Positions 6,919-25,429 of a stretch of DNA of 64,000 nucleotides are shown piece by piece. Source of the stretch: the human T2T-CHM13v2.0 reference genome, Homo sapiens. How positions within the stretch are numbered: the stretch's first letter is position 1; each line of letters starts with the position of its first letter. Where the stretch lies: NCBI RefSeq assembly GCF_009914755.1, contig NC_060939.1. One strand, 5' to 3'. A program made the translations under genes and the position numbers. A model generated the notes under the pieces. It had not been told where the DNA came from and made no database searches. It worked only from the letters and a program-made list of their open reading frames with translations.

Positions 6919-8810
6919 CCACCTAACGGAAGATCCTAGATTCAACTGGATCCCAGGAATGGCAGGTGTATTTAAGCCAAAAGTGCTATTCACCTTTAAT
7001 CCAGCCCAAATGCTCCAATATCTGAAGTCAATTTATAGTAGACTTATGCCTCCAATGTTAGCGTGGCAACTGTTTAAACCAGGAAACTCCCAGACAAGGA
7101 GTTTTATCATGCTATATTTTCACAAGTTGCCCCTAGAAGAGTTAAACTATCTAGAATGGGGGGAAAATCTATCATAAGGCACAGAAGTGATTCTAGAAGT
7201 CTAAAGTCATCATCTAGAGATTTTCTGGTCAAACTTTGGAACCTAAGCATCTTCAGGCTTCCTAGGTAGTTTGGTGGGCCTGTATGTTCACAACTTGGCT
7301 GAGAGCTCGTGTGTATTCTAGGGATCCAGAACCATTGTTTCAACCCCACCTTGTCCACAAGGCCCAGCTCTGAAGGCCACAGTCCCTGTAGGATCCTCTA
7401 CCTAGAGAATGTCACATGCATGTCAGCCCAGCCAGACCTATGAAGTCTCAATCACATGTACTAGACAGTATTCTGACGGCTACAATTGGCACTGGTTGGC
7501 AGAGCTTCAGGACAGCACATGGCATATTGTAAGCCCTTAGAACATTCTTGAATGAATAAAAAAGCAAATAAACCTAATCCATTTGGATGTCTGGTGGCAT
7601 CCAATCTAATTAAAGATGTATTTGAGCCAACCAGCTGAAGCCCCATCCGCAAACACTTTTATGCAGGGCTGATAATCAATCAGAACAGCTGTATCAGTTG
7701 TTTATAGATGGTGTCTATTTTGAGTGGTCAGACATCCATTCTAATTGGAAGGACTCAGGGTCTAAAAGTTGGTAAATACTTCTAATATCACTTCTGACTA
7801 TTCCTGGAGAAAATGTAGGGGTGTCTATGGTGAGTTCAGGGATTTCAGGACTGATTAAGGAAAAGACAGAACTACAAGATGTCAGTACTGAACAGTAAGT
7901 TTTATTGGCCAGTATTGGGACACAGTCGCATGAGAGAAGAAGCTCCTTTTCCTTCCAGGATGAGTAGAAGACCTGACAGAAATAGCAGCATGGGATTAAC
8001 ACCCAGAAGGCAAAAGAGGGCAAGAGAACTTCCAGGGGAGCAAGGAATCAGAGATGGGGCTTATGTGTCTAGCAGTCGCTGGGCTAGAGACCTATGAAAA
8101 GCAGCCGTGATTTGAGGTCATTTATAGCTATAACGGTTATCTTATCTATGGATGGCAGGTATTAGGTATAGTTTTGTGGTGTAGGTAAAGAAGACAGACT
8201 CTAAATGGCTTAAAACATGCTTATTTGGAATATATTTAAAGCAACTGGGTATGTAAGGATTGAGTTTGGCACCATGGGGTTTAAGCTAATAGTCCTCGCC
8301 TGCTGTGAAGAAGTAACAACCTAGGAGCTATATACAGAGCCCACCTTTAGTCCATTTGTATATCAATGTCCTGTGAAACTTAGAAAAGAGAGAGAGAGAT
8401 CCATTCCTGACTCTACAAAGGAAGACAGGGTTTCTCTACAAGCTAGAAGAGATAAGCCCTTGTGACCACGTGGAGATAGTGAGGGACTTCTGATGGCTAC
8501 AGTGGAGGAAATTCAGGCTCTTTGGATTCTCCCATGCCTGTATGAAATTTACTGCTCCTACGGTCAGCTTTAACTAGGAAGCCCTGTTTATATCCCAGTT
8601 TGGGCGAGCACTTCAGAACAAGAACCACTCCTTTCTTGCACACCACGAATCCCAGATCAATACCAGAGGACAAGTGTAAACTGTGCATTGCAAAAGCATC
8701 TCAGATGCAGCTTTCTTCCTTCTCACAAGTACCTCCTCAAATCAAAGTTGTCTTAATCCAACTAATCATGGCTCCACTTAAAATACACCATTTTATTGAA
8801 ATCATGGATA

Positions 8811-13216: not shown

Positions 13217-15162
13217 TTATCTTCGAAGAGCATTTTTATTTTTCTGAAGTCAAATGTTATCTTGCTTAAAGAATATATATATACATTATACATGTTTGTG
13301 TACATGCTTGAGGAGATATCATTATGTATTTGTGTGCATACATACAAACATTTATGGTTGGTGTGTGTGCTCATGTGTGTGCTTATGTATATGTTCTTTT
13401 CTCTGTGACTCGTGTGTCTCTTTGCTAGAATCTGTAATAGGAGGAATGCAAAATGGACACAAGCCATATGAATTCAGCAGCCTCATGGATGTGGATGCTC
13501 AAAAGCAGCAGTCATCTATCAAAGGAAGTGTATTGGACTAAATGGAGAGATTTTTAATAAGAGGCAAGGGGGTGCACTTTACCTAATAAAAAGAGCATAG
13601 AAAGACCCTGGCTGTGGCTAATGTGCATAAAAAATTCAGCCTGTCAGATCCTCACTTTTCTAATTCAGTAATCTAAATAATTTATTTGACATTTTAGCTC
13701 AAGATGACCTTTCTTAGGAAAAAATTACTGTTTTAAACTTTTAGCAAGTGCAACCTCAGCCACAGAATCCCTATTGAAGTCTGCATTTTCCCAAATGAGC
13801 AAAGGTTAATCTCATAGTGCTCAAACACATTGCTGACCCTTTTAAACAGTTCGCAAAATGTCATTTAATTTTTTAATCTAATTTCAATTATGTTGTAACA
13901 TTTGAGTTGCGTATTTGGGGGTGGGGGTAGTGATGTGAGATTCCAGTCAGGTCCTGCTTAGAGAAATTTAGGCAAATGATTCTTTTTAAATAAAACAGAT
14001 TAATAGATAATGTCATTCATTTCCCCTATGGTTTGAATATACATATAATCATGAACAAAATATAATAAAATCATGCACACTTCCCCTGAAGGATTAACAA
14101 ATGGGGATTAAGGTGGTTAGTTCTTGAGAGAAACAATACTGGAATCCAAGGTTCTCAAAGGTGCTGTGTGATTGAGGATATTAGCTTTTAAGCCAAGGAT
14201 ACTCAAAGGAAACCCATGCTCTAAGCTATATAGGGTCCACCTTCTCCTCTCATTCTAGGGCAGGTCTGAATCCACCCAAGAGATAAGGAGGGTGACAGAT
14301 GTTGTAGATAGATTATTATCTCAGCCATTCCATCAGCCATTAATGAAATTTCAACTTTTTCTCTCAAAAGCTATTCTCTTAGCTTGCTAGCAGATCAGAA
14401 AAACAGAAGAAGGTAGAATTGTTACTATGAAGATAATTGGATCTTCCTCTCTGCAGAATAAGCTATCATTTCATCATTGCATCCTAGAAAGCTTATTTAG
14501 GAGATTCAGAGATGTTGTAACACTTTGTTAACCAGGATTTCCTCCTACCCCCACCAAAGGATGATAGAATTTGGTACTCTAATTTGACAAACATCCCATT
14601 TTCTCACTGTCATTTTTTAAGCAATGTCCCCTTGGGAACATTTGGGTGGCTTAAGGTTCTCTGTTATTTGCAAATCCAAAATATTATCACTGGTGGTTGT
14701 ACCAATGATCTGAGTAGAATGAGCTGATGTGAATATCAAACCAAGATATGAATGCTCAGCTCCATTACTTTCCTCTCATTATCACCTCTCTTGATATAGC
14801 TTTCCCCAGAGAGTCTAGTGTTCCTTATTTGCCTTACCCTGAAATATCATATTTCCCTAAATCAAAAGTACCTATAAGCCACACTCGCAGAAGTTGCCTC
14901 AATAAAGGGAGTTTTATACATACAACCTACAGGCAGGTGAATCAGCATCTTGCCTGTTCTTCTCACTTTGCCACTTTACCAAATTTGCCTCCAAAGGATT
15001 TAGAATATGAGACACAGATACAAATAAAGATGTCTGATCATCATTTTTACTTTAAAATGCACATTTTTCACTATCATCAATGAGAACTGTGTGAGGTCTA
15101 GCATACCATGTTGTTTCATAAATGAAAAATAGTCTATTTCTGCTATTTTCATTATATCCATC

Positions 15163-15345
15163 CCAAGGGTTCTCGGCTCAAGGTGTACATTAGAATCACC
15201 CAGGGGTCACTGCAAAAACACAAACTTAGGAGGCCCTCTTAAATCTTACTGAATCAGAATCTGTGCGTATGGGGCAAGTGTCATATATTTGTACATAGCT
15301 GTGTAGAATTGTGTATGCTTACCTACCCCTGGTTAAGAATCACTA
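15163..15345. mobile_element. MER5-family hAT-Charlie MITE
   Basis: ggttctc...acattagaatcacc...tactgaatcagaatct...ttaagaatcact. Confidence 0.7.
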
Positions 15346-16265
15346 ATTGGGTAAGTTTTCACATGGGCTATCTAGTGTAACTGGAATAGTGAATGAAAGT
15401 GTGCTCTGAAGAAGAGAATTCCCATCATGCCTAGGCTAAAGGATAATCATTCAGAACACCTGAAAGATTTGGAATGTGCAGAAGACAAAAGTCCTTGTAA
15501 AAATATCTCCAAACAACACTTTATGACTTATTTTAGATATTTTGATAAAATATATCATATCCCTTGCACTGATCATTGTTTGGAGTATTTGCTATAGCAT
15601 TTGCCATTGCCAGAAATTGCTGGCATTCGTTTAAGAAAAACACACAGCCAGTCAGTCTTTGGTATAAAAACTACACAGTACTGTATTGCCCTACCACTCA
15701 TAGAGGAATAACATGAGGAATTTTGCCTGGGAGTTACTGGAATTCCCACATTCCAATTTTCCTGGTTCTGATTAAAGTGCAAATGGAATCAATTGGAATC
15801 ATATTAGAAAGCATGAAACACCAAAAGCTAGTTCCTAAAAATGTCTCAATCTTTTTCTTTTCTCACTCTAGAAGATTCTACAGGACTCTTTCCACTTCAA
15901 TATCTCAGGTCCCAAAAGTCCAAGCTGCCCCACATTTTCCTGGAAACAATTTCCCAAAGTTTGATCCATGATACACAATTTCTGCAACAATTCTGAAGGA
16001 AAGTATGTCTTTCACATTTTCATATTTTACAGGGTCAAATAAGTTTGAAAGATCCAAATGCATGTTAGCATAGTCAGTCTTGGGGAAGCTATATTACTAT
16101 AGAAATGAAACATGATTAGTCAGGCTTTCCCAAACTATGAAATAACTATCCTTATTGTATGTGATACATTAACATCCAATGAGAAGCTGTTCCAAAAAAC
16201 ACACTTTGATAACCACAATGACAGCTGTGAATCAGCCAAGACAGCTGTCTCTTCTACCTCTGTGA

Positions 16266-16565
16266 TTTTTTTTTCTTTGAGACAAAGTGTCACTCCGTCA
16301 CCCAGACCAGAATGCAGTGACACAATCACAGTACACTGTAAACTTGACCTCCTGGACTCAAACAATCCTCCCACCTCAGCCCTCAGCCTCCAAGTTGCTG
16401 GAACTACAGGTTGGCACCACCACATCCAGCTTATTTTTTTATTTTTTTGTAAAGATGGGATCTCACTATGCTGCCCAGCGTAGTCTCAACTCCCAGGCTC
16501 AAGTAGTCCTCCCACCTTATCTCCCAAAGTGCTGGGATTACAGGCATGAGTCAGTGTATCTGGAC
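16266..16565 (-). mobile_element. AluJ
   Basis: T-tract, diverged dimer (ctcctggactcaaacaatcctcccacctcagcc), TSD ctctgtga(a)tttt on both sides. Confidence 0.9.
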
Positions 16566-16754
16566 CTCTGTGAAATTTTTAGAATTCAGTAGAATTGAAA
16601 TAAGTAGCAAAGTAAACAGTTGATAGATGTATCTGTTATCTTCCTTTAGAATGACAAATAACTGCCTGAAGACAGAATAAAATTGGGGTAAGAAGAAACT
16701 GGGGAAGAGTAAGTGTCTGAACAAGATATGCTACAGATTGAGTGTACAGATTAG

Positions 16755-17084
<330 letters not shown>

Positions 17085-19319
17085 TCAGCAGCATTCTGAT
17101 GGAATTAACTGTTGCTCCTCTCTTTTTAACTTTGAGTAAACTTGCTTACTACGCCTAAGTGTATGATGGAAAACAATTTAATTAAATTGCAATGCCTGAG
17201 TTCCCCTAACCTATAACATAAATGTAGCCATTAATATTAATATTCTAATCTCAATATCTCCAAGCTCCATTCACTCAGGTCCCACTCTCAAATTCAATAA
17301 GTTCAATAACTTGCCTCAGTACTTGGAAGAATTTTGATTGGAATTCAGGACTGTGTGGCTTTTAAATACTCCATTCCATCGCTTGAGAAGCATAAATACT
17401 TGCTCTCAGTGTTTTCTTAAATTGGTCCCAGCCAACCAAACTTGGAGACCTGCCTGGAATACTGAGAGCTGGCACTGCATCACCAGCCCCTCCAATAAAG
17501 CTGCCAGGGTCACCACCAAAGCAGCCACCATAAACTCTATGTGGGCTCCTGCCCAGTGGCCAACGATGCTTTTGCAAAACAAAAGCCCTCCTTCCCCCCT
17601 TGCTTCTGTGTAATGGTGACTTTGAGTGTCATCAGAGCCCCAGAGAAGGTTTCAGATCTCTGTGAGACAGATTTTCTCTCAGACAAGCTTTGTCATTCCC
17701 ACCAGAAGTCCAACTATGACTGCCACCCGTCAAGCTAAATTACTGTACACTCTATGCCTATCAAAGGACAGAGGAGAAATAGCACCACTGTACCTTTTGT
17801 GCTAGTTAAAAAGGAGGGAGAATGAAGACAACTTCCCTAGACCTATATATGGATAGCTCCACAAGGGGGCTAAGTGGCTTAGTCCAAAATATTCTGGTAT
17901 TTTGAGAAAGGGATATTTCAATGAGCAGGCACGCCTCTTTCATCCTTGGGTTACAGAAATTCCATGAGAGCTGCAACATCATTCCCAAGATTGCATTTAG
18001 CCCTGAGGACCTGCCACTGAGTTAGCCTTCCTTTGCCAGATTCCATCTTCCATTATGGGCAGGTAGCGTTTTCTTTTCTCTCACCTTTCCCCTAAAATAT
18101 GACTTCCATTCAGCCCCTCTCCTCATCCCTACCTTCTACCATCAGAAAGTATGTCCCCTGTAATAAGACTTCCAAATACTCCCTTCCCCATTTTATCACC
18201 AGACTCTACAATTCCGGTCCCCCCCAGGTCCCTTCCAGGAAGCTCCACACATCTTCAGATAAATCATGGGCTACAAAGAAAGACAGTTTGAGGAAAAGAT
18301 GTTGTGCTATTCACATGTCCAACGAGGCTGAGTTGTTACTAAGCCAGCCTGACCACAAGTGCCCTTGATTCCAACTCTTCCTAACCCCGGGATTTTGCTT
18401 CATTGTCTCCAGCCTTGCCCCCTTTTCCAGCTCCTTCCCCTTGGCCTACAGAGGGCCTAATGGACCTCAATTCCTTATCTCTGGCCTTCCTTTCATTTTC
18501 TAATTTTGTTCTCTATTTTTCCTCTTAAGCATTCATTCACTTATGCAGCTCCTACAAACAGACTTCTAAAATTGTTCGTATTCCAATCCCCATTCTTAAT
18601 AGTTGGTATACCTAATGGCTACTTTTCAGTCCTTAATTTTTCTGACCTCTGAGCAACACCACTGACAACACTCTTATTAACACCCTTCCTTTTGTTCCTT
18701 CTACGTCATAAGTCTTTCTCTTTGGGTTATTTTCTTGCTTCTCTGTAAACGCCCTCTATCTCTGGTTTGTTTTCAGGCTTCTGGTATACTGTCCAACCCT
18801 GAAGCATTCTTATCATCCCTGTCTTATCATTCTATACACTCTTCTTCAAAAGATCTCTATTTCAAAGTTTCCCTTACCATCAATGTACTCACATCTTCAT
18901 CTTCTCCACTCAGTTGCATCCCTGGAGCTCCAGACCCTTATTTCCCACAGTCAGTTAGACAGATGCACCTGGGTGTCTAACAGACACTCAAAATATAATT
19001 ACCTTATCAATTTACTCTGCTACAACATATTTCTCATTTCGGTTTAAATCTACCTAGCCACCCAAGAAAGAAATGTAGGAAGCCCTCTTTGTCTTCTCCC
19101 ATGTCACCTGGTCCTGTCATTCTCATCATCTCTCTCTCAAATTTGTCTTCTCCCCACTATTCTTACTGCTGCAGTTCAGTCAGAATTTCCTACCTGGCCC
19201 CTACTTCATGCTTTCACAGCATTCAACTGCAAGTATGGTCCAATATATTTATACCGAGCTGAATTCAGTTCCTCAGTGCATCATTTTCTTGAATAGTTTT
19301 ATGATTTCATGCATTCTAT

Positions 19320-20167
19320 TGAGAGTTGAAGCCAGCTGGGCTTCTGGGTAGGGTGGGGACTTGGAGAACTTTTCTGTCTAGCCAAAGGATCATAAACACA
19401 CCAATCAGCACTCTGTGTCTAGCTAAAGGTTTGTAAACGCACCAATCAGCACTCTGTAAAAATGCACCAATCAACGCTCTGTGTCTAGCTAAAGGTTTGT
19501 AAACGCACCAATCAGCACTCTGTAAAAACACACCAATCAGCGCTCTGTGTCTAGCTAAAGGTTTGTAAATGCACCAATCAGCACTCTGTAAAAACACACC
19601 AATCAGCGCTCTGTGTCTAGCTAAAGGTTTGTGAACACACCAATCCGCACTCTGTAAAAAGGCACCAATCAGCACTCTGTGTCTTTCTAAAGGTTTATAA
19701 ATGCACCAATCAGCACTCTGTAAAATGGACCAATCAGTGCTGTGTAAAATGGACCAATCAGCAGGACGTGGGTGGGGCAAAATAAGGGAATAAAAGCTGG
19801 CCAAAATAAGGGAATGAAAGCTGGCCACAGGAGCCAGCAGCGACAACCTGCTTGGGTCCCCTTCCGTGCTGTGGAAGCTTTGTTCTTTCACTCTTCACAG
19901 TAAATCTTGCTGCTGCTCACTCTTTGGGTCCACACTGCCTTTAAGAGCTGTAACACTCACTGCAAAGGTCTGAGGCTTTACTCCTGAAGTCAGCAAGACC
20001 ACGAACTCACCAGAAGGAAGAAACTCTGGACACATCTGAACACCTGAAGGAAAAAACTCTGGACACACCATCTTTAAGAACTGTAACACTCACTGTGAGG
20101 GTCCGTGGCATCATTCTTGAAGTCAGTGAGACCAAGAACCTACTGGAAGCAACCAATTCTGAACACA
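19320..20167 (+). mobile_element. ERV9 solo LTR (LTR12 family) with 4-bp TSD
   Basis: Starts TGAGAGTTGAAGCCAGCTGGGCTTCTGGG, ends CCAATTCTGAACACA; CTAT at 19316-19319 and 20168-20171; tandem CCAAT array; U5 repeats (ctgtaacactcactg). Confidence 0.96.
19398..19762 (+). promoter_or_regulatory. LTR12 U3 tandem array with 12 CCAAT (NF-Y) boxes
   Basis: CCAATC recurs with mostly alternating 41/25-bp spacing (66-bp unit); counted by eye. Confidence 0.85.
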
Positions 20168-20532
20168 CTATCCTTCCATTCAAAATGTCTTCCTTCTCCT
20201 TGTTCACATGGTAAGAACTTCAAATGTCAAATGTGAGTTCCTCCATGAAGTGATTCCTGACTTTATCATGAAGAGATGTCTTCCTCCTTTGTGCTGTCAC
20301 AGCACACTGGATACAAACCTCCATTCACAGCACTGTTCTTAGTGGTTTGCAACTCTGTCTCTACACCTTGCCCCCTGTGGACAGTAAGTGTTCCAAGGGT
20401 AGGGAGAAACTATGTTCTATTCATCTTCACATCGCCGAAATTTAACATCGTGGTGGGCTTTTAAAGATTGCTGAACAAATTGATTTGTCTAATGTACATT
20501 AAAAGAAGTGACAGAAATTAATGTTAAGAGAG

Positions 20533-20612
20533 AGGCAGGGATTTCTACTTGGGGGAGGCACAGGGATTTCTAGTTGGGGGAGGGGTGGAGATTTCTAGTT
20601 GAGGGGGGCGGG
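20533..20612 (+). repeat. G-rich ~25-bp tandem repeat, 3 imperfect copies
   Basis: gggatttctacttggggg / gggatttctagttggggg / gagatttctagttgagggggg. Confidence 0.85.
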
Positions 20613-20654
20613 AAAATATACTTGCTTTCAGGGAAAGAATTCTGGACAGTCTTG

Positions 20655-21070
20655 CACCTGGGTTCTCTTACCCAAGCTCTGCCATTGGCTGTGTAACCTA
20701 GATTAAGTCATTCACTGTCTCAGAGCCTCAGTTTAATCATCTGAAAGCAAAAAAAAAAAAAAAAGCTACACAACTCAGTTACCACCAAGATCCCTCTCAT
20801 CTCAAAGACTTTAAGTACAAGAGTTAGCCAGAAAATAAGGGGAACTGACAAACAGTCTAACATAACATGCAGGCCTGGGTTCAAAGCCTGACTCTACCAA
20901 TTACCAGATATAACCAGAGTATCTAACTTCTCTAAGCATCAGTTTCCTTGTCTAAAATGCATGCATAAATAATAAATGTTTTCCCATCATAGACTCATGT
21001 AAGAATTAAATCAGTGGATACACATATAGCACTTAGAACAGTAGCTGATACAGATGGGCAAAGCACTTAC
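20655..21070 (+). mobile_element. Two adjacent MIR SINEs (~20655-20810 and ~20865-21070)
   Basis: MIR cores: gctgtgtaacctagattaagtca...gagcctcagtttaatcatctg and cctgggttcaaagcctgactctacc...tcagtttccttgtctaaaatg...agcacttagaacagt. Confidence 0.7.
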
Positions 21071-21158
21071 CAAATAGAAGACAGTCTGACCATGAATGAA
21101 CCTAAATTTGACTTCGTAGCTTTTCACTTTAATGCTGACTAGTTGTATTCCTGACTGA

Positions 21159-21477
21159 AATCACTTCATGGAGAAACTCACATTTGAGGTTTGAAGTTTT
21201 TACCATGTGAACAAGAAGGAAAACATTTTGAATGGAAGGATAGAATGAGTGAAATCATAAAAATGTTGAAGAAAATCATTTATTGAGGAACTGAATTCAG
21301 TTCAGTATAAATATATTGGACCATACTTGCAGTTGGATGCTGTGAAAGTGTGAAGTAAGGACCAGATTGGAAATTCTCAGTGTCTGAACTGCGGCAGTGA
21401 GAATAGCAGGGAAAAGATAAATTTGAGAGAGAGAAGATGAAAATGACAAGACCTGGTGAACTTAGGACCTCCTACAT
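21159..21477 (-). repeat. Inverted duplicate of 19073-19319 plus 20168-20255 (L2-derived)
   Basis: Reverse complement aligns: 15 mismatches in 121 nt ungapped for 19199-19319 vs 21240-21360; 5 mismatches plus a 3-nt indel for 20168-20255 vs 21159-21243 (manual counts). Confidence 0.95.
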
Positions 21478-22655
21478 ACATAAGTCAGTAAGCCATTGAG
21501 TACCAAGATAGTCTATATGTTTTGTCTCAGGTCTACTGTTTCTGCCAGAAGAACCATCCATTCTTCCACACTGTTGATACTAAGAAATTTAGCATGCATG
21601 GAATTGGCAAGCAGGATATTGAGGTTTCAGAAGTCTATCTTGGCATCTATCTTCCACCAACGCCCCCAGGGCCCTGGAACAATTCATGATCAGTTTTCCC
21701 TTAATTCTGGGGAAAGGAGTGAGATGATCAGAGGGCACTGGGGGAAAGGAGTTGATTTCTTCTGAACTCTTCCCAGAAAGAAGCCCATCAGCCTGCTTCT
21801 TACTAGATAGAAGTCAAAAGAAAGGTGTAACTCTGAAAAAAAAAATTACTTCGAGACCATTGTTTTGACTACTGAGACCATTCTTTTTCTCAGACTCCTT
21901 CCTTTTCTCCCAAGCTGATTTCTTTTAGTGAGTTTTCCAAGAAGGACCTTCACCTCCAACTTCAACCTTAGTCTTAACAGACCAACAGGTAATAAAATTG
22001 AAAAGACAGGCAACTTTTATTTCCCTCTGGCTGGATCCACACTCAGGTGGTGAGGCTTAGTAATAGGAAGCCTCTCACCTCCAACAAAGGCTAAGTGGAC
22101 TCTCAGCAAGACTATATTAAAAGTATCCAGCATGTCTCATGCACTAGACAGATTCTATATTTAACCCCTCCATTTGCTGAGTAGCACAATAGGTAAAGGA
22201 GAAGCCCAGCATTGTGTTCAGGATGTCTTGAGAACAAATCATGCAGGCTGGCAATGGGATCCCATAACCATTGCTAGGAAAAAGGACTGGTGGGGCCCTT
22301 GATATGTGTGAGCCCTGGCTTCGTTATTACAGCCACTTGGAAGAAAAGGCGGGATAGCAGATTTGGGCTACGGGTTTCCACTTATCTGAATTAGTAATAA
22401 AGATCTTGAAAGACACAGGAGCAATGCCATTAGTCCCAGCTGCCTTCATTATTTTTAATATGCCTTTGTTCACCTCCATTTCCCTTTAAGATTGGAGAAA
22501 GTCCATGTAAGAATTCATGATTTTCTATCCCAATCTTCCTATTTATAAAGTGGTGCACTTGAAATGGCATGTAGCAGACCCCTGCCAGGTGGGCTGCCTC
22601 CCAAAGTTCAACAGGAACAGTGTGAGTGGGCTAAGAGATGGATGGCGGCCCTTAC

Positions 22656-22674
22656 CTGACCACGATGGGAAAAC
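22656..22674 (-). other. Candidate 19-nt microexon (or 3' end of a 163-nt exon starting at 22818)
   Basis: Minus strand: ctgcttgcttgtccttttaaag|GTTTTCCCATCGTGGTCAG|gtaagg. Confidence 0.3.
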
Positions 22675-25429
22675 CTTTAAAAGGACAAGCAAGCAGCCTA
22701 ATTTCTTTTATTCCTCAAGGCAATGGTGGGGCGTTTTGATCTTTCCTGGGTTTGTTTCTCAGCCAGCTCTAGTCCTTTGTCTTGCCCCTTTCAATGAGGT
22801 TCTGCAGTTTTATTTTATCTAAACCAGAAAACGTCGCGTGATTCTGTAAATGTTTTCTTGCTGTTGTACTTTTCAGACTATTTTCTTCCTTGTTTTTTGG
22901 AGGCCTGAATCTGCCTTTGGTCACACTATTTGCTCCTCTATGGTCACCTCGGAGAAGATTAACCCTTTCATTAAAAAAGCCTGGCCAGGGTCAAACTACC
23001 GCCTGGCTAGGGACTCTTACATCCCTTTGATCTCCCAGCTATGGAGAAATTATTAGCAAATTCTAAGCCTTCCCATGTGATTTGTTTTTGTAAATTTGTA
23101 GAAATTATTCCTAATCCTATTACGTGGCCTAGGGCAAACCTGCATTAAATATAGGAGACTTTTTGTTATGTGGCAGATGGATAATAAAGGAATGCTGAAT
23201 GCAGCTCCATTCCAAGTTATGGGAATCTGGACACTTCATCAGCATTCACTTAATCCTCTGCCATAGCTCCGCCTTTGATGAATGCTCTCATTTATGACCA
23301 CTGATGCCGCTCACTTAATTTCAGAGAAGAAAAATAATACCTAGCTGTTAATGTGAATATTTGAGTTTATGGCTGTACAATGAATAATTGTGACATTATC
23401 AAAGGAACATCTCCTTATACATTATTCAGTTGTATAGACCACATTAACCAGAGATTGGAAACTTGCAATTTTGCATCTTCCATCTTCTTTGGAACGGAGA
23501 CACCATGCAGACAAAAGTCAGTGTCTCAAACCAAATTCTACCTGACAATGCGTATCAGCCCGCACTATATTTTGCTCATTGTGGTGCCAATCTCCTATCT
23601 TACCAATGACATTTTTTCAAAGAAAGAGGGGATTTCCTAGAGACTCGACCCCATGCAACTTCCATAGCTTATTATTGAATAGGAAAATGTAGTTTTGGTT
23701 TCTGCTTTAAAACTGATGCCATGGAGGATGTCTTGAGGGTTAGACTGAAAATTAAGACAGCACACCTTTGCTGCTTATACTTTATATATAAACTGAGGGC
23801 CTTTTTCAATGTAAGTTTTCACTTAGACAGCAGGAGAGAATGGAAGTCACCCATGAATTACCAAGCCTTTGCTGGGTTCAGCCAGGCAGAGATCCGTGCT
23901 GGTACCATTAAGGACAGTCATGCAAAATCACTCACTTCTCTGTTACAGAATAGATATGCCTCAGCTGCTTCAGCATTGTATGCCTTTGTTTCTGGGGAAG
24001 TAGGGGATGAGGTGCCAGAAAAGGCATGTAAAGAGTAGGATGGAACATTTTCATTGTAAAACCTCATTGGATAGTGTTTTTAACTAAGATATGTGCAGAT
24101 GTTATGCACAGGCATGTTGTCTGAAAATGCCAGGAATACTTTATAAAATAGCAAACTTATTTAATAAGACAGCAAATACCGGTATCAGACTATGAATGGC
24201 ACCACTGAGCTATTGATTTTTAAAGTATCCTTCCATTTTAGTTTAATTTCAATATTGCTTGGTAAATACACTTTGAGGTTAAGATCAGATTTCTCTAAAG
24301 ATGTTTTCCTGAGTTGCTGTTTGAGTAATCCTCATGAGATCAGTTATATTCATGATGGCAAAATGCCCGCAAATAGATCTTTGAGACTTGGGAGGTGCAC
24401 TAAGGTAAATGAAATCAGCAATATGTGTCATTTTTCCAGTTTTAGTAAGCCATAAGCCAAACATTTTCATATTCTGCTAGCTTCCACACTACAGTCAATT
24501 TATTGGCATGAACCACTAACTGAAAGACTGTAGAAAAAAAGTATTTTAGCCTATATCCAGAAAATTCATTATGGAAGTTCATTTATGATTGTTCAATGCC
24601 CAGAAGCAAGGGTAAACAAGGCATACATAGTTCTACTCAAACTCCACATGATTTAGTAATGCATGGTGAAAGCAATAAACAAGACTTCTAGATGGTTAAA
24701 AGAGAGGTTCTGGTCACTGTTCATTTTCCTATTATATGAAATTAATAAACTGAATAGCAAATTTGGAGTTAGACAAATAAGGCTTTCTCACCTTTGCCTC
24801 CTGAGGCTGATAGTGATGGCACTGGGAATCAGGTATAGACTCTTGGAACCACTGAGAATGATGCTCAACTAAACAAATACTCTCAGCTGAAGAAATCGCC
24901 AAGTTACGTCTGTGATGGGTGACTAAATAAGCACCCTCAACCATTTTGCTTATGGTGGTTGTTCTCCTCGACAGACAAAATGGCTCTAAAAACAATTCTA
25001 ACAGTCACTCTACCAGCATTTATCAGTGGCCATCTGGATTATCTGTCCCAGAAAAATAGATGCAAAAATATTACAAATGGAAACTTAGATGAAAGAGCCT
25101 ATCAGCTATACTAAAGACCAATAGGTACTGAATCTAGTGCCAACTTAACACAAATGTCTTCTGTCTTCAGAATTGTCTTATTCTTTGTCTTATTTATCAA
25201 ATACTTGATTTCCATTCCTGAAAACTAATTTAGTAGACTTAGGGTGGGAAACTGGCATGGAATTTTTTGAAACAGCACAGGTGATGCTGATGCCCAGAAT
25301 TAACGGTCACAGGCATAGCTTGTCAAGGAATGAAAATCAAGCATTTGAACTTTTTTCAAGTTTTGCAGGAGGTTATTTTGATTCGCAGCCCTATTTGAGA
25401 ACCGCTCCTCTGCAATTTGCCCTTACTTT

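What the first reader, a model, noticed from the sequence alone, without database searches (positions are those of the whole stretch)
19073..21477. Local inverted duplication whose second arm preserves the empty LTR12 integration site
Seen: 21159-21477 is the reverse complement of 19073-19319 joined to 20168-20255, at ~88% identity over the manually aligned blocks, with a ~900-bp spacer. This is much closer than independent L2 copies normally are. The left arm reads cattCTAT[LTR12]CTATccttcc. The right arm (reverse complement) reads cattCTATccttcc with one CTAT (21240-21243), so the filled and empty sites sit side by side. The left arm is colinear with a longer L2, so the right arm is the derived copy. 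A 10-bp direct repeat, attcctgact, lies at both inner junctions (20253-20262 and 21147-21156). Inference: the order was L2 insertion, then template-switch-type inverted copy, then ERV9 insertion and solo-LTR formation. Repeat masking would likely hide this as two unrelated L2 hits.
Basis: partly seen in the sequence, partly recalled or inferred. Interest (0 to 1): 0.7.

Follow-up and report, generated by a model that had tools for sequence, protein, structure and literature searches.

The report
Inverted duplicate preserving LTR12 empty site
About 320 bases of non-coding human DNA were copied backwards some 900 bases away tens of millions of years ago, and a lone end of an ERV9 retrovirus (an LTR12) later landed in one copy, so the other copy still shows the untouched landing site: a tidy but ordinary genomic fossil.

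Summary
19073-19319 plus 20168-20255 is the reverse complement of 21159-21477. Of 317 aligned sites, 276 are identical (87.1%, K2P 0.144).

A whole-genome search finds no third copy, so these are not two members of a young repeat family.

Between the two left pieces lies an 848-nt solo LTR (19320-20167). It has TG..CA ends and CTAT on both sides; the right arm carries a single CTAT. Its U3 region has 12 CCAAT motifs in repeats spaced 41 and 25 nt apart. The genome search gave 4314 first-look relatives. It lacks the roughly 600-nt 5' extension of LTR12C/D/E. It is therefore ERV9/LTR12 of the older, short type.

Order of events: duplication first, at about 33-48 Myr under assumed rates; LTR insertion afterwards, at roughly 20-40 Myr.

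Not verified:
- The 'L2' label. No repeat library was available, and pairwise searches lack the power to see ancient repeats.
- The template-switch mechanism.
- That the left arm is the parent copy. This rests on base composition only.

The 10-nt direct repeat is real and unlikely to be chance, but it is not explained. This is a new instance of known kinds, of low interest.

The parts
19073..19319 (+). Left arm, piece A (outer part of the duplicated stretch). It is pyrimidine-rich, like the 1 kb upstream of it.
   Evidence: Inverted match to 21240-21477. 200 of 236 sites identical over 19071-19319 against 21240-21479. Composition.
19316..19319 (.). Target-site duplication CTAT, left copy
   Evidence: Read; flanks printed.
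19320..20167 (+). Solo LTR of the ERV9/LTR12 family, 848 nt, oriented U3 to U5 on the + strand. Short type, without the 5' extension of LTR12C/D/E.
   Evidence: TGAGAG...AACACA ends. Genome matches reach query positions 1 and 848, with 4314 first-look candidates. The flanks have no family matches. The arm homology breaks exactly at both ends.
19394..19763 (+). U3 tandem repeats with CCAAT boxes. Sub-units are spaced 41 and 25 nt apart, giving a 66-nt period.
   Evidence: families D1-D3. 12 CCAAT between 19401 and 19754. Four copies of the printed GATA-type motif with one mismatch. Description in print from PMC11853044.
19775..19822 (+). 24-nt tandem duplication inside the LTR, private to this copy
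   Evidence: D9. Most relatives span this block in 196-197 nt instead of 221.
20168..20171 (.). Target-site duplication CTAT, right copy
20168..20255 (+). Left arm, piece B (inner part of the duplicated stretch)
   Evidence: Inverted match to 21159-21243. 80 of 85 sites identical.
20253..20262 (+). 10-nt word ATTCCTGACT, first copy: the last 3 nt of the left arm plus 7 nt beyond it
   Evidence: Chance tests.
20256..21158 (.). Spacer of 903 nt, single-copy between the arms. It holds a 25-nt x3 repeat at 20536-20610, an A-run, and MIR-like stretches (that label is recalled, not tested).
   Evidence: I3: 903 nt between the arms; D6. No inverted partner found.
21147..21156 (+). 10-nt word ATTCCTGACT, second copy, in direct orientation, 2 nt before the right arm
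21159..21477 (-). Right arm: an uninterrupted inverted copy. It is a compositional island in neutral flanks.
   Evidence: Composition.
21240..21243 (-). Unfilled integration site: a single CTAT (ATAG on the + strand)

Best explanation
A unique, pyrimidine-rich non-coding stretch of about 335 nt was copied once, in reverse orientation, to a spot 0.9 kb downstream. The stretch may be part of an ancient L2, but that was not tested. The copying was most likely a replication or repair error with more than one template jump, in an anthropoid or early catarrhine ancestor. Later an ERV9 provirus integrated into the original (left) copy and duplicated the 4 nt CTAT. Recombination between its two LTRs then left a solo LTR12-type LTR of 848 nt. 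The right copy never received the virus, so it keeps the site as it was.

Shown:
- the inverted pair, and that it is the only such pair in the genome
- the exact edges of the LTR
- the target duplication and the unfilled site
- membership of the LTR12 family
- the order of events, copy first and LTR second

Inferred:
- the copying mechanism
- which arm is the parent
- the provirus stage
- the absolute ages
For: Arms:
- Searches give 276 of 317 sites identical, K2P 0.144 +- 0.023.
- Whole-genome searches with the right arm, with 20168-20520 and with 17800-19319 return only the query itself and the other arm.
- The same tool finds thousands of LTR relatives at 78-86% identity. A repeat family of that similarity would therefore have been seen.
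- nhmmer and relaxed blastn over the window plus 200 kb of flanks find nothing else. The best other blastn hit for either arm is E = 0.006 over 30 nt.

LTR:
- It has TG..CA ends, CTAT on both sides, 12 CCAAT in U3 repeats and 4314 first-look relatives.
- This matches the printed description of 5-17 repeats of about 41 nt with NF-Y CCAAT sites (PMC11853044, passages).
- All 11 relatives fetched with flanks start TGAGAG. Of the 7 with host DNA on both sides, 2 have an exact 4-nt duplication and 3 match at 3 of 4.

Order and age:
- The single CTAT in the right arm fixes the order.
- Half the arm distance is 0.072. The LTR terminal branch is 0.059 on non-CpG columns.
- The LTR block 19799-19960 is 90-91% identical to its best relatives.
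- In print, the earliest ERV9 insertions date to about 30 Mya in the human-macaque ancestor. The 5' appendage of LTR12C/D/E came about 10 Myr later (PMC8767690, passages).

Left arm as parent: the arm is 0.60-0.65 pyrimidine, like 18000-19070 at 0.64. The sequence outside the right arm is 0.49.
Against: - The L2 label and the claim that the left arm runs on into an L2 3' end could not be tested with any tool.
- The 10-nt repeat is direct while the arms are inverted. A single strand switch or a fold-back primed by inverted microhomology does not predict this. Read one way, with the right arm as source, the junction needs no filler bases. Read the other way, it needs two.
- Piece B (94%) is closer than piece A (85%), Fisher p = 0.035. 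Gene conversion or uneven rates may therefore distort the age.
- The LTR terminal branch on all columns (0.087) exceeds half the arm distance (0.072). Only the CpG-masked figure fits the order, and misaligned U3 repeats inflate the LTR figures.
- Only 40 of 4314 LTR candidates were scored, and matches in closed regions of the reference are not shown.
Confidence: 0.75

Rival explanations
1. The arms are two independent insertions of one interspersed repeat family (L2 or another) that happen to lie head to head. The 'empty site' would then be simply what any other family member looks like.
For: Pairwise searches have little power for ancient repeats: a MIR-like control found only 1 hit in 264 kb.
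Against: No third copy was found in the whole genome or in 264 kb with sensitive settings. The same genome tool reports relatives at 78-86% identity for the LTR. A family young enough to give 87% between two members would leave many such copies. A family as old as L2 would not give 87% between independent copies (general knowledge, not tested here). The right arm also begins and ends exactly where the homology ends and carries no further family sequence.
Confidence: 0.03
2. The right arm is the original and the left arm is the inverted copy. The LTR would then have landed in the derived copy.
For: With the right locus as source, the sequence ATTCCTGACT-GA-arm is native there. The left junction (the arm followed by CCTGACT) then reads as a 7-nt templated tract reached through the 3-nt ATT/AAT inverted match, with no filler bases needed (read).
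Against: The left arm's pyrimidine richness and negative GC skew continue for more than 1 kb upstream: 0.64 pyrimidine and GC skew -0.40. The right arm is an island in neutral flanks: 0.49 and +0.04. By my unaided recognition only, 20256-20515 looks like the natural 3' continuation of the left arm.
Confidence: 0.12
3. The pair is the by-product of a small inversion with staggered breaks. The 903-nt spacer was flipped, and the stretch between the staggered nicks was filled in on both sides, leaving inverted duplicates that flank the inverted segment.
For: The geometry fits: two inverted copies bracket a single-copy segment. The model is known from inversion breakpoints in flies and primates (recalled, not read here).
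Against: It predicts that the native continuation of the arm lies next to the right arm in reverse. Nothing there resembles the left arm's continuation. It also gives no reason for the direct 10-nt repeat. By recall only, the sequence after the left arm looks like the same element running on.
Confidence: 0.08
4. The duplication is much older than 50 Myr, and the arms were kept similar by gene conversion, so the divergence clock understates its age.
For: The identity is uneven: piece B has 5 differences in 85 sites and piece A has 36 in 236, Fisher p = 0.035.
Against: The p value is marginal and was computed after looking at the data. Differences in piece A are spread over the whole arm: 5, 9, 7, 2, 7 and 2 per 40 columns after the gapped first bin. 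Arms of 88-250 nt at 85-94% identity are poor conversion substrates (general knowledge).
Confidence: 0.1

Closest known systems
ERV9 / LTR12 solo LTRs (short forms LTR12, LTR12_, LTR12B, as opposed to LTR12C/D/E)
   Same: TG..CA ends and a 4-nt target duplication. U3 tandem repeats of about 41 nt with CCAAT boxes and a GATA-type motif. A variable repeat block at the 3' end. Thousands of genomic relatives (PMC11853044 passages). Solo form, which print says is the fate of about 90% of HERV insertions (PMC11007075 passages).
   Different: It lacks the roughly 600-nt 5' extension that marks LTR12C/D/E (PMC8767690 passages). It carries a private 24-nt duplication. It has the longest terminal branch of the 21 copies compared. 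The exact subfamily name cannot be given without a reference library.
Replication-based template switching (MMBIR/FoSTeS at large scale; short-range template switches in great-ape genomes)
   Same: An inverted copy of nearby sequence is placed close to its source, and the junction carries a short extra templated tract. The models are in PMC2621351 (search listing and abstract) and PMC7954356 (abstract).
   Different: The size is in between: a copy of about 335 nt placed 0.9 kb away. That is larger than the mutation-cluster events of PMC7954356 and far smaller than clinical rearrangements. No clear inverted microhomology lies at the switch point.
Fold-back inverted duplications with a single-copy spacer (PMC3907307)
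   Same: Two inverted copies separated by a normal-copy spacer. The 903-nt spacer lies within the published range of 766-70,466 bp (passages).
   Different: Those events are megabase duplications next to terminal deletions, and 13 of the 21 sequenced junctions carry 2-8 bp of inverted microhomology. Here the copy is interstitial and about 335 nt long. The junction shows a direct 10-nt repeat and no inverted match of 2 nt or more at the junction itself.
Intergenic inverted duplicates catalogued genome-wide (PMC5398296)
   Same: It belongs to the class that survey counted: 4,315,271 in human. Most have spacers of up to 1,000 nt (passages).
   Different: Arms of about 320 nt fall in the survey's longest arm-length class, which runs from 36 nt (the 80th percentile) up to 10,000 nt. 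The present-day pair is also split by a later LTR.
Paralogous or 'related' empty sites used to prove transposable-element insertions
   Same: A duplicated copy of the target without the insert shows the exact insert edges and the single copy of the target duplication. The term is in routine use in transposon papers (search listing only).
   Different: Here the filled and the empty site lie 1.1 kb apart in one inverted pair, rather than at distant paralogous loci.

Membership tests
ERV9 / LTR12 LTR | LTR ends TG...CA | tested here: met
   The LTR starts TGAGAG and ends AACACA. All 11 relatives fetched with flanks start TGAGAG, and 10 of the 11 end GACACA.
ERV9 / LTR12 LTR | Short target-site duplication flanking the element (4 nt in this family) | tested here: met
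   CTAT lies on both sides and once in the right arm. Among the 7 relatives with host DNA on both sides, 2 are exact at 4 nt, 3 match at 3 of 4, and 2 do not match. One provirus pair has the same 4 nt on both outer sides, allowing a 2-nt offset at its 3' end. That 4 nt is the rule for this virus group is recalled, not read in print.
ERV9 / LTR12 LTR | U3 with 5-17 tandem repeats of about 41 nt carrying CCAAT (NF-Y) sites (PMC11853044) | tested here: met
   11 repeat units spaced 41 and 25 nt apart (D2/D3). 12 CCAAT in 19401-19754, which is 15.3 per kb against 1.17 per kb in the whole window.
ERV9 / LTR12 LTR | GATA-type motif in the U3 repeats (as printed in PMC11853044) | tested here: met
   Four copies with one mismatch at 19412, 19478, 19544 and 19610. 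The window total is 6 against 1.87 expected.
ERV9 / LTR12 LTR | Sequence similarity to the several thousand genomic LTR12 copies | tested here: met
   4314 first-look candidates, 40 scored, full-length matches at 78-86% identity. Print gives 4,000-6,000 copies.
ERV9 / LTR12 LTR | Match to a curated LTR12 reference sequence (Dfam/Repbase), needed to name the subfamily | not testable with these tools
   No repeat library was on hand.
LTR12C / LTR12D / LTR12E | About 600-nt 5' extension ahead of the U3 repeats (PMC8767690, PMC11853044) | tested here: not met
   The U3 repeats start 75 nt from the LTR's first base and the whole LTR is 848 nt. It is not filed under C/D/E.
Solo LTR | No internal proviral sequence next to the LTR; the same target duplication on both sides | tested here: met
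   Both flanks are the two halves of the host arm, as shown by the uninterrupted right arm. The flanks have no family matches.
LINE-2 (L2) | Similarity to an L2 reference or to other L2 copies | not testable with these tools
   No library was available. Genome search, nhmmer and relaxed blastn found no other copy. A MIR-like control found only 1 hit in 264 kb, so a blank says little.
LINE-2 (L2) | Remnants of the reverse-transcriptase reading frame upstream of the 3' region | tested here: inconclusive
   Ten + strand reading frames between 16112 and 19047 gave no relevant Pfam match. The one chance-level hit was below its cut-off. Decay could explain the blank.
Template-switch inverted duplication | An inverted copy of nearby sequence with no third copy elsewhere | tested here: met
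Template-switch inverted duplication | Microhomology at the switch points | tested here: inconclusive
   Inner junction: a 10-nt direct repeat, not inverted. Outer junction: ACAT twice in tandem at 21474-21481. Neither has the classical form.
Template-switch inverted duplication | Ancestral state without the copy in an outgroup | not testable with these tools
Fold-back inverted duplication (PMC3907307) | Inverted microhomology of 2-8 bp between the spacer end and the end of the duplicated region | tested here: not met
   The last bases of the spacer (GA) have no inverted match to the bases after 20255. The nearest inverted match, ATT/AAT, lies 9 nt inside the spacer.

The most novel reading that the evidence does not exclude
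The LTR points (U3 to U5) into piece B, the spacer and the right arm. Any transcript started in this LTR12 would therefore carry 20168-20255 and its inverted partner 21159-21243. In the predicted RNA fold these pair as one stem of about 85 bp at 94% identity. The locus could then be an LTR-driven source of long double-stranded RNA, a possible substrate for editing or small-RNA processing. RefSeq already lists the LTR as an enhancer element. The pair is also a datable fossil of a mid-sized template switch, between the short-range and the kilobase classes.
Probability: 0.07. Interest if true: 0.5.

Novelty: new member of a known kind. Interest (0 to 1): 0.2.

Why it matters
The locus dates itself. 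The unfilled right arm proves the LTR's edges and its 4-nt target duplication to the base without needing another species. It also fixes the order of two events. It adds one clear, old, short-type ERV9 insertion to the record, and one clean example of a roughly 335-nt inverted copy made 0.9 kb from its source. Neither is new in kind. No gene is annotated in the window, and the nearest, TMCO5A, is 71 kb away. The only hints of function are the RefSeq enhancer label on the LTR and a VISTA enhancer 1.1 kb away.

Tried and rejected
1. Naming the arms as L2. All of the following came back empty:
- whole-genome DNA search
- nhmmer against the window and against the window plus 200 kb of flanks
- relaxed blastn, word size 7
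- Pfam on ten upstream reading frames
- Rfam at E up to 1, which gave only two chance-level hits

A control with a MIR-like part of the spacer found only 1 hit in 264 kb. These blanks therefore rule out a young family but not an ancient one. My own recognition of an L2-like 3' end at 20256-20515 is recall only.

2. TIRs of a DNA transposon: rejected. No other copy exists in the genome.

3. A larger inverted duplication reaching beyond the arms: rejected. 18000-19072, the spacer and 21478-22550 have no inverted partner.

4. LTR block distance. My K2P of 0.22-0.35 for 19764-19930 was an alignment artefact caused by the private 24-nt duplication. One search gives 90-91% identity over 19799-19960. 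I do not use the block figure.

5. Source paper for the RefSeq enhancer label: not found in the library. What I remember of it is not used.

6. I did not look for this locus in print by coordinates. The searches I ran were about families and mechanisms. I therefore make no claim that the locus is unpublished.

7. Substitution rates of 1.0, 1.5 and 2.2e-9 per site per year are recalled, not taken from a call.


Full report
**What is in the sequence.** I read 18900-21700 and ran the repeat finder on 18000-22500. It returned four colinear inverted blocks:
- 19104-19182 with 21381-21459 (86%)
- 19177-19319 with 21240-21382 (86%)
- 20168-20197 with 21214-21243 (97%)
- 20196-20255 with 21159-21218 (92%, 903 nt between the inner ends)

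I aligned the two left pieces to the right arm separately; they were never joined. The similarity reaches out to 19073/21477 after a 13-nt gap, and it stops after 20255/21159. Counts: piece A has 200 of 236 sites identical and piece B has 80 of 85. Summed, 276 of 317 are identical (87.1%), with 27 transitions (2 in CpG context), 14 transversions and three gap events. K2P is 0.144 +- 0.023.

**More than chance, and not a repeat family.** Whole-genome searches of the reference returned only the query itself and the other arm. The queries were the right arm (E = 2.2e-63 and 1.9e-25 for the two left pieces), 20168-20520 and 17800-19319. The same tool, given the LTR, listed 4314 first-look candidates and matches at 78-86% identity, so it can see families of that closeness. 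Matches in closed regions are not shown, which is a caveat.

I added 200 kb of flanking sequence. nhmmer and blastn with word size 7 and +1/-1 scoring found nothing else. The best other hit for either arm was E = 0.006 over 30 nt.

A control shows the limit of these blanks. A MIR-like piece of the spacer (that label is recalled) found only one hit at E = 0.0016 in the same 264 kb. Pairwise searches barely see ancient repeats.

**The 'L2' label.** No tool here names repeats. Ten + strand reading frames upstream gave no relevant Pfam match. Rfam gave only two chance-level hits. RefSeq's soft-masking list has no masked stretch of 100 nt or more on either arm. In the span I listed (window 15000-25000) the masked stretches are three inside the LTR and two further left, at 16341-16480 and 16775-17086. 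To my eye 20256-20515 resembles the 3' end of L2. That is recall and I give it no weight. The label stays untested. I built no family profile or consensus, as the rules require.

**The insertion is real, and its edges are exact.** 19320-20167 (848 nt) starts TGAGAG and ends AACACA. CTAT lies on both sides (19316-19319 and 20168-20171). The right arm reads through the same place with one CTAT (21240-21243). Family matches reach query positions 1 and 848, and the flanks have no family matches. Three independent lines thus put the edges at the same bases.

**Family.** The U3 part holds 11 repeat units spaced 41 and 25 nt apart, giving a 66-nt period. It has 12 CCAAT between 19401 and 19754, which is 15.3 per kb against 1.17 per kb in the window. 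It has four copies of the printed GATA-type motif with one mismatch. The 3' part holds a 104-nt repeat at 133-nt spacing. Relatives carry one more or one fewer copy of the last 230 nt.

This matches passages of PMC11853044: U3 with 5-17 repeats of about 41 nt carrying NF-Y CCAAT sites, GATA-type and G-rich motifs; U5 of variable length; 4,000-6,000 copies; lengths from about 500 to more than 1,300 bp. Passages of PMC8767690 and PMC11853044 say that LTR12C/D/E carry a 5' extension of about 600 nt that spread in hominoids. Here the repeats start 75 nt from the first base, so this is a short, older-type LTR12, not C/D/E. A finer name needs a reference library.

All 11 relatives fetched with short flanks start TGAGAG. 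Four of them sit next to inner proviral sequence. Of the other 7, 2 have an exact 4-nt duplication (one of them also CTAT), 3 match at 3 of 4, and 2 do not match.

**Solo status.** Both flanks are host DNA, the two halves of the arm, so this is a solo LTR. That it passed through a full provirus and lost it by LTR-LTR recombination is inferred from what is known of the class (PMC11007075 passages).

**Age of the duplication.** With recalled rates of 2.2, 1.5 and 1.0e-9 per site per year, K2P 0.144 gives 33, 48 and 72 Myr. The 2-SE ranges are 22-43, 32-64 and 48-95 Myr.

**Age of the LTR.** I compared whole LTRs as they stand with 20 relatives.
- K2P to the relatives has median 0.169 and minimum 0.144.
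- The neighbour-joining terminal branch is 0.087 on all columns and 0.059 with CpG-context columns masked. It is the longest of the 21 copies.
- These are upper bounds. Only 40 of 4314 candidates were scored, and the repeats misalign.
- My block figure of 0.22-0.35 was an artefact of a private 24-nt duplication. One search shows 90-91% identity over 19799-19960.
- One relative pair (L026/L027) proved to be the two LTRs of one provirus, with the same 4 nt outside both. They differ by K2P 0.105, or 0.058 on non-CpG columns.

The window LTR is thus older than that provirus. It is roughly 20-40 Myr old, early in ERV9's history. Print puts that history from about 30 Mya (PMC8767690, PMC11853044) to about 6 Mya.

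**Does the clock fit the order?** Half the arm distance (0.072) exceeds the CpG-masked LTR branch (0.059) but not the all-column branch (0.087). The clock agrees with the order only after masking. The order itself rests on the unfilled site, not on the clock.

**Which arm is the parent.** The arm is pyrimidine-rich (0.60-0.65) with GC skew of -0.27 to -0.35. So is 18000-19070, just upstream of the left arm (0.64; -0.40). The corresponding side of the right arm is neutral (0.49; +0.04). The left arm lies in a longer domain of its own kind and the right arm is an island. I therefore take the left arm as the parent. This is the only tool-based evidence for polarity.

**Mechanism.** ATTCCTGACT lies at 20253-20262, which is the last 3 nt of the left arm plus 7 nt beyond it. 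It also lies at 21147-21156, 2 nt before the right arm. The two copies are in direct orientation. The word occurs three times in the window against 0.30 expected. A shared word of 10 nt or more between the two junction neighbourhoods arose in 24 of 20000 shuffles and in 71 of 20000 real pairs. It is therefore probably a trace of the event.

It is not the inverted microhomology that a single strand switch or a fold-back would use. PMC3907307 reports 2-8 bp of inverted microhomology and spacers of 766-70,466 bp. The 903-nt spacer fits that range, but the junction does not. An event with several jumps and a short templated tract, as in MMBIR (PMC2621351, listing and abstract), fits best. Read that way, either arm could be the source. 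At the outer end ACAT occurs twice in tandem (21474-21481), which is weak evidence. I hold 'template switching' as the most likely mechanism at about even odds. A staggered-break inversion and a reversed polarity are the rivals.

**Context and novelty.** No gene is annotated in the window, and TMCO5A is 71 kb away. RefSeq lists an enhancer element over the LTR (19234-20433) and VISTA enhancer hs830 at 22553-24053.

Inverted duplicates are very common in the human genome. PMC5398296 counted 4,315,271, with an 80th percentile of arm length of 36 nt (passages). Using a paralogous empty site to prove an insertion is routine in transposon work (listing only). This is therefore a clean new instance of known kinds.

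The boldest reading the evidence leaves open is that the LTR drives a transcript carrying the stem of about 85 bp formed by 20168-20255 and 21159-21243. There is no evidence of such a transcript.

Noticed in passing
window 19234-20433: RefSeq lists a functional element named 'BRD4-independent group 4 enhancer' that covers the whole solo LTR and parts of both left-arm pieces. I could not find the source paper in the library.
   Followed up: partly
window 22553-24053: VISTA enhancer hs830 (a RefSeq element) lies 1.1 kb to the right of the right arm.
   Followed up: no
window 20536-20610: A G-rich 25-nt unit repeated three times in tandem inside the spacer (family D6).
   Followed up: no
window 19775-19822: A 24-nt tandem duplication in the LTR that most relatives lack: they span the same block in 196-197 nt instead of 221. 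It spoiled one of my distance estimates.
   Followed up: yes
window 20620-21110: Two stretches that I recognise by eye as MIR-like, with a run of about 16 A between them at about 20749-20765. One of them found a single weak relative in the flanks (L004, E = 0.0016). The label is recalled.
   Followed up: partly
window 21474-21481: ACAT twice in tandem at the outer end of the right arm: the last 4 nt of the arm and the first 4 nt of the flank. This is possibly a junction microhomology.
   Followed up: no
window 20150-21260: In the predicted RNA fold, 20168-20255 pairs with 21159-21243 as one long stem, in both the minimum-energy and the centroid structure. The LTR's sense direction points into it.
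   Followed up: partly
G000 C24:17166709-17167559 and C24:17230879-17231729: Two LTR relatives on the Y chromosome with identical scores, on opposite strands and 64 kb apart. This is probably a Y palindrome pair.
   Followed up: no
L044 (C5) and L050/L051 (C11): A solo relative on chromosome 5 and a provirus on chromosome 11 share the same 4-nt target duplication. They also share about 9 nt of the 3' host flank. The 5' flanks agree at only 7 of 15, and the LTRs are not especially close (K2P 0.134-0.148). This could be coincidence or a target preference.
   Followed up: partly
window 8403-8412: A third exact copy of the 10-nt word ATTCCTGACT, far from the finding. I take it as chance.
   Followed up: no
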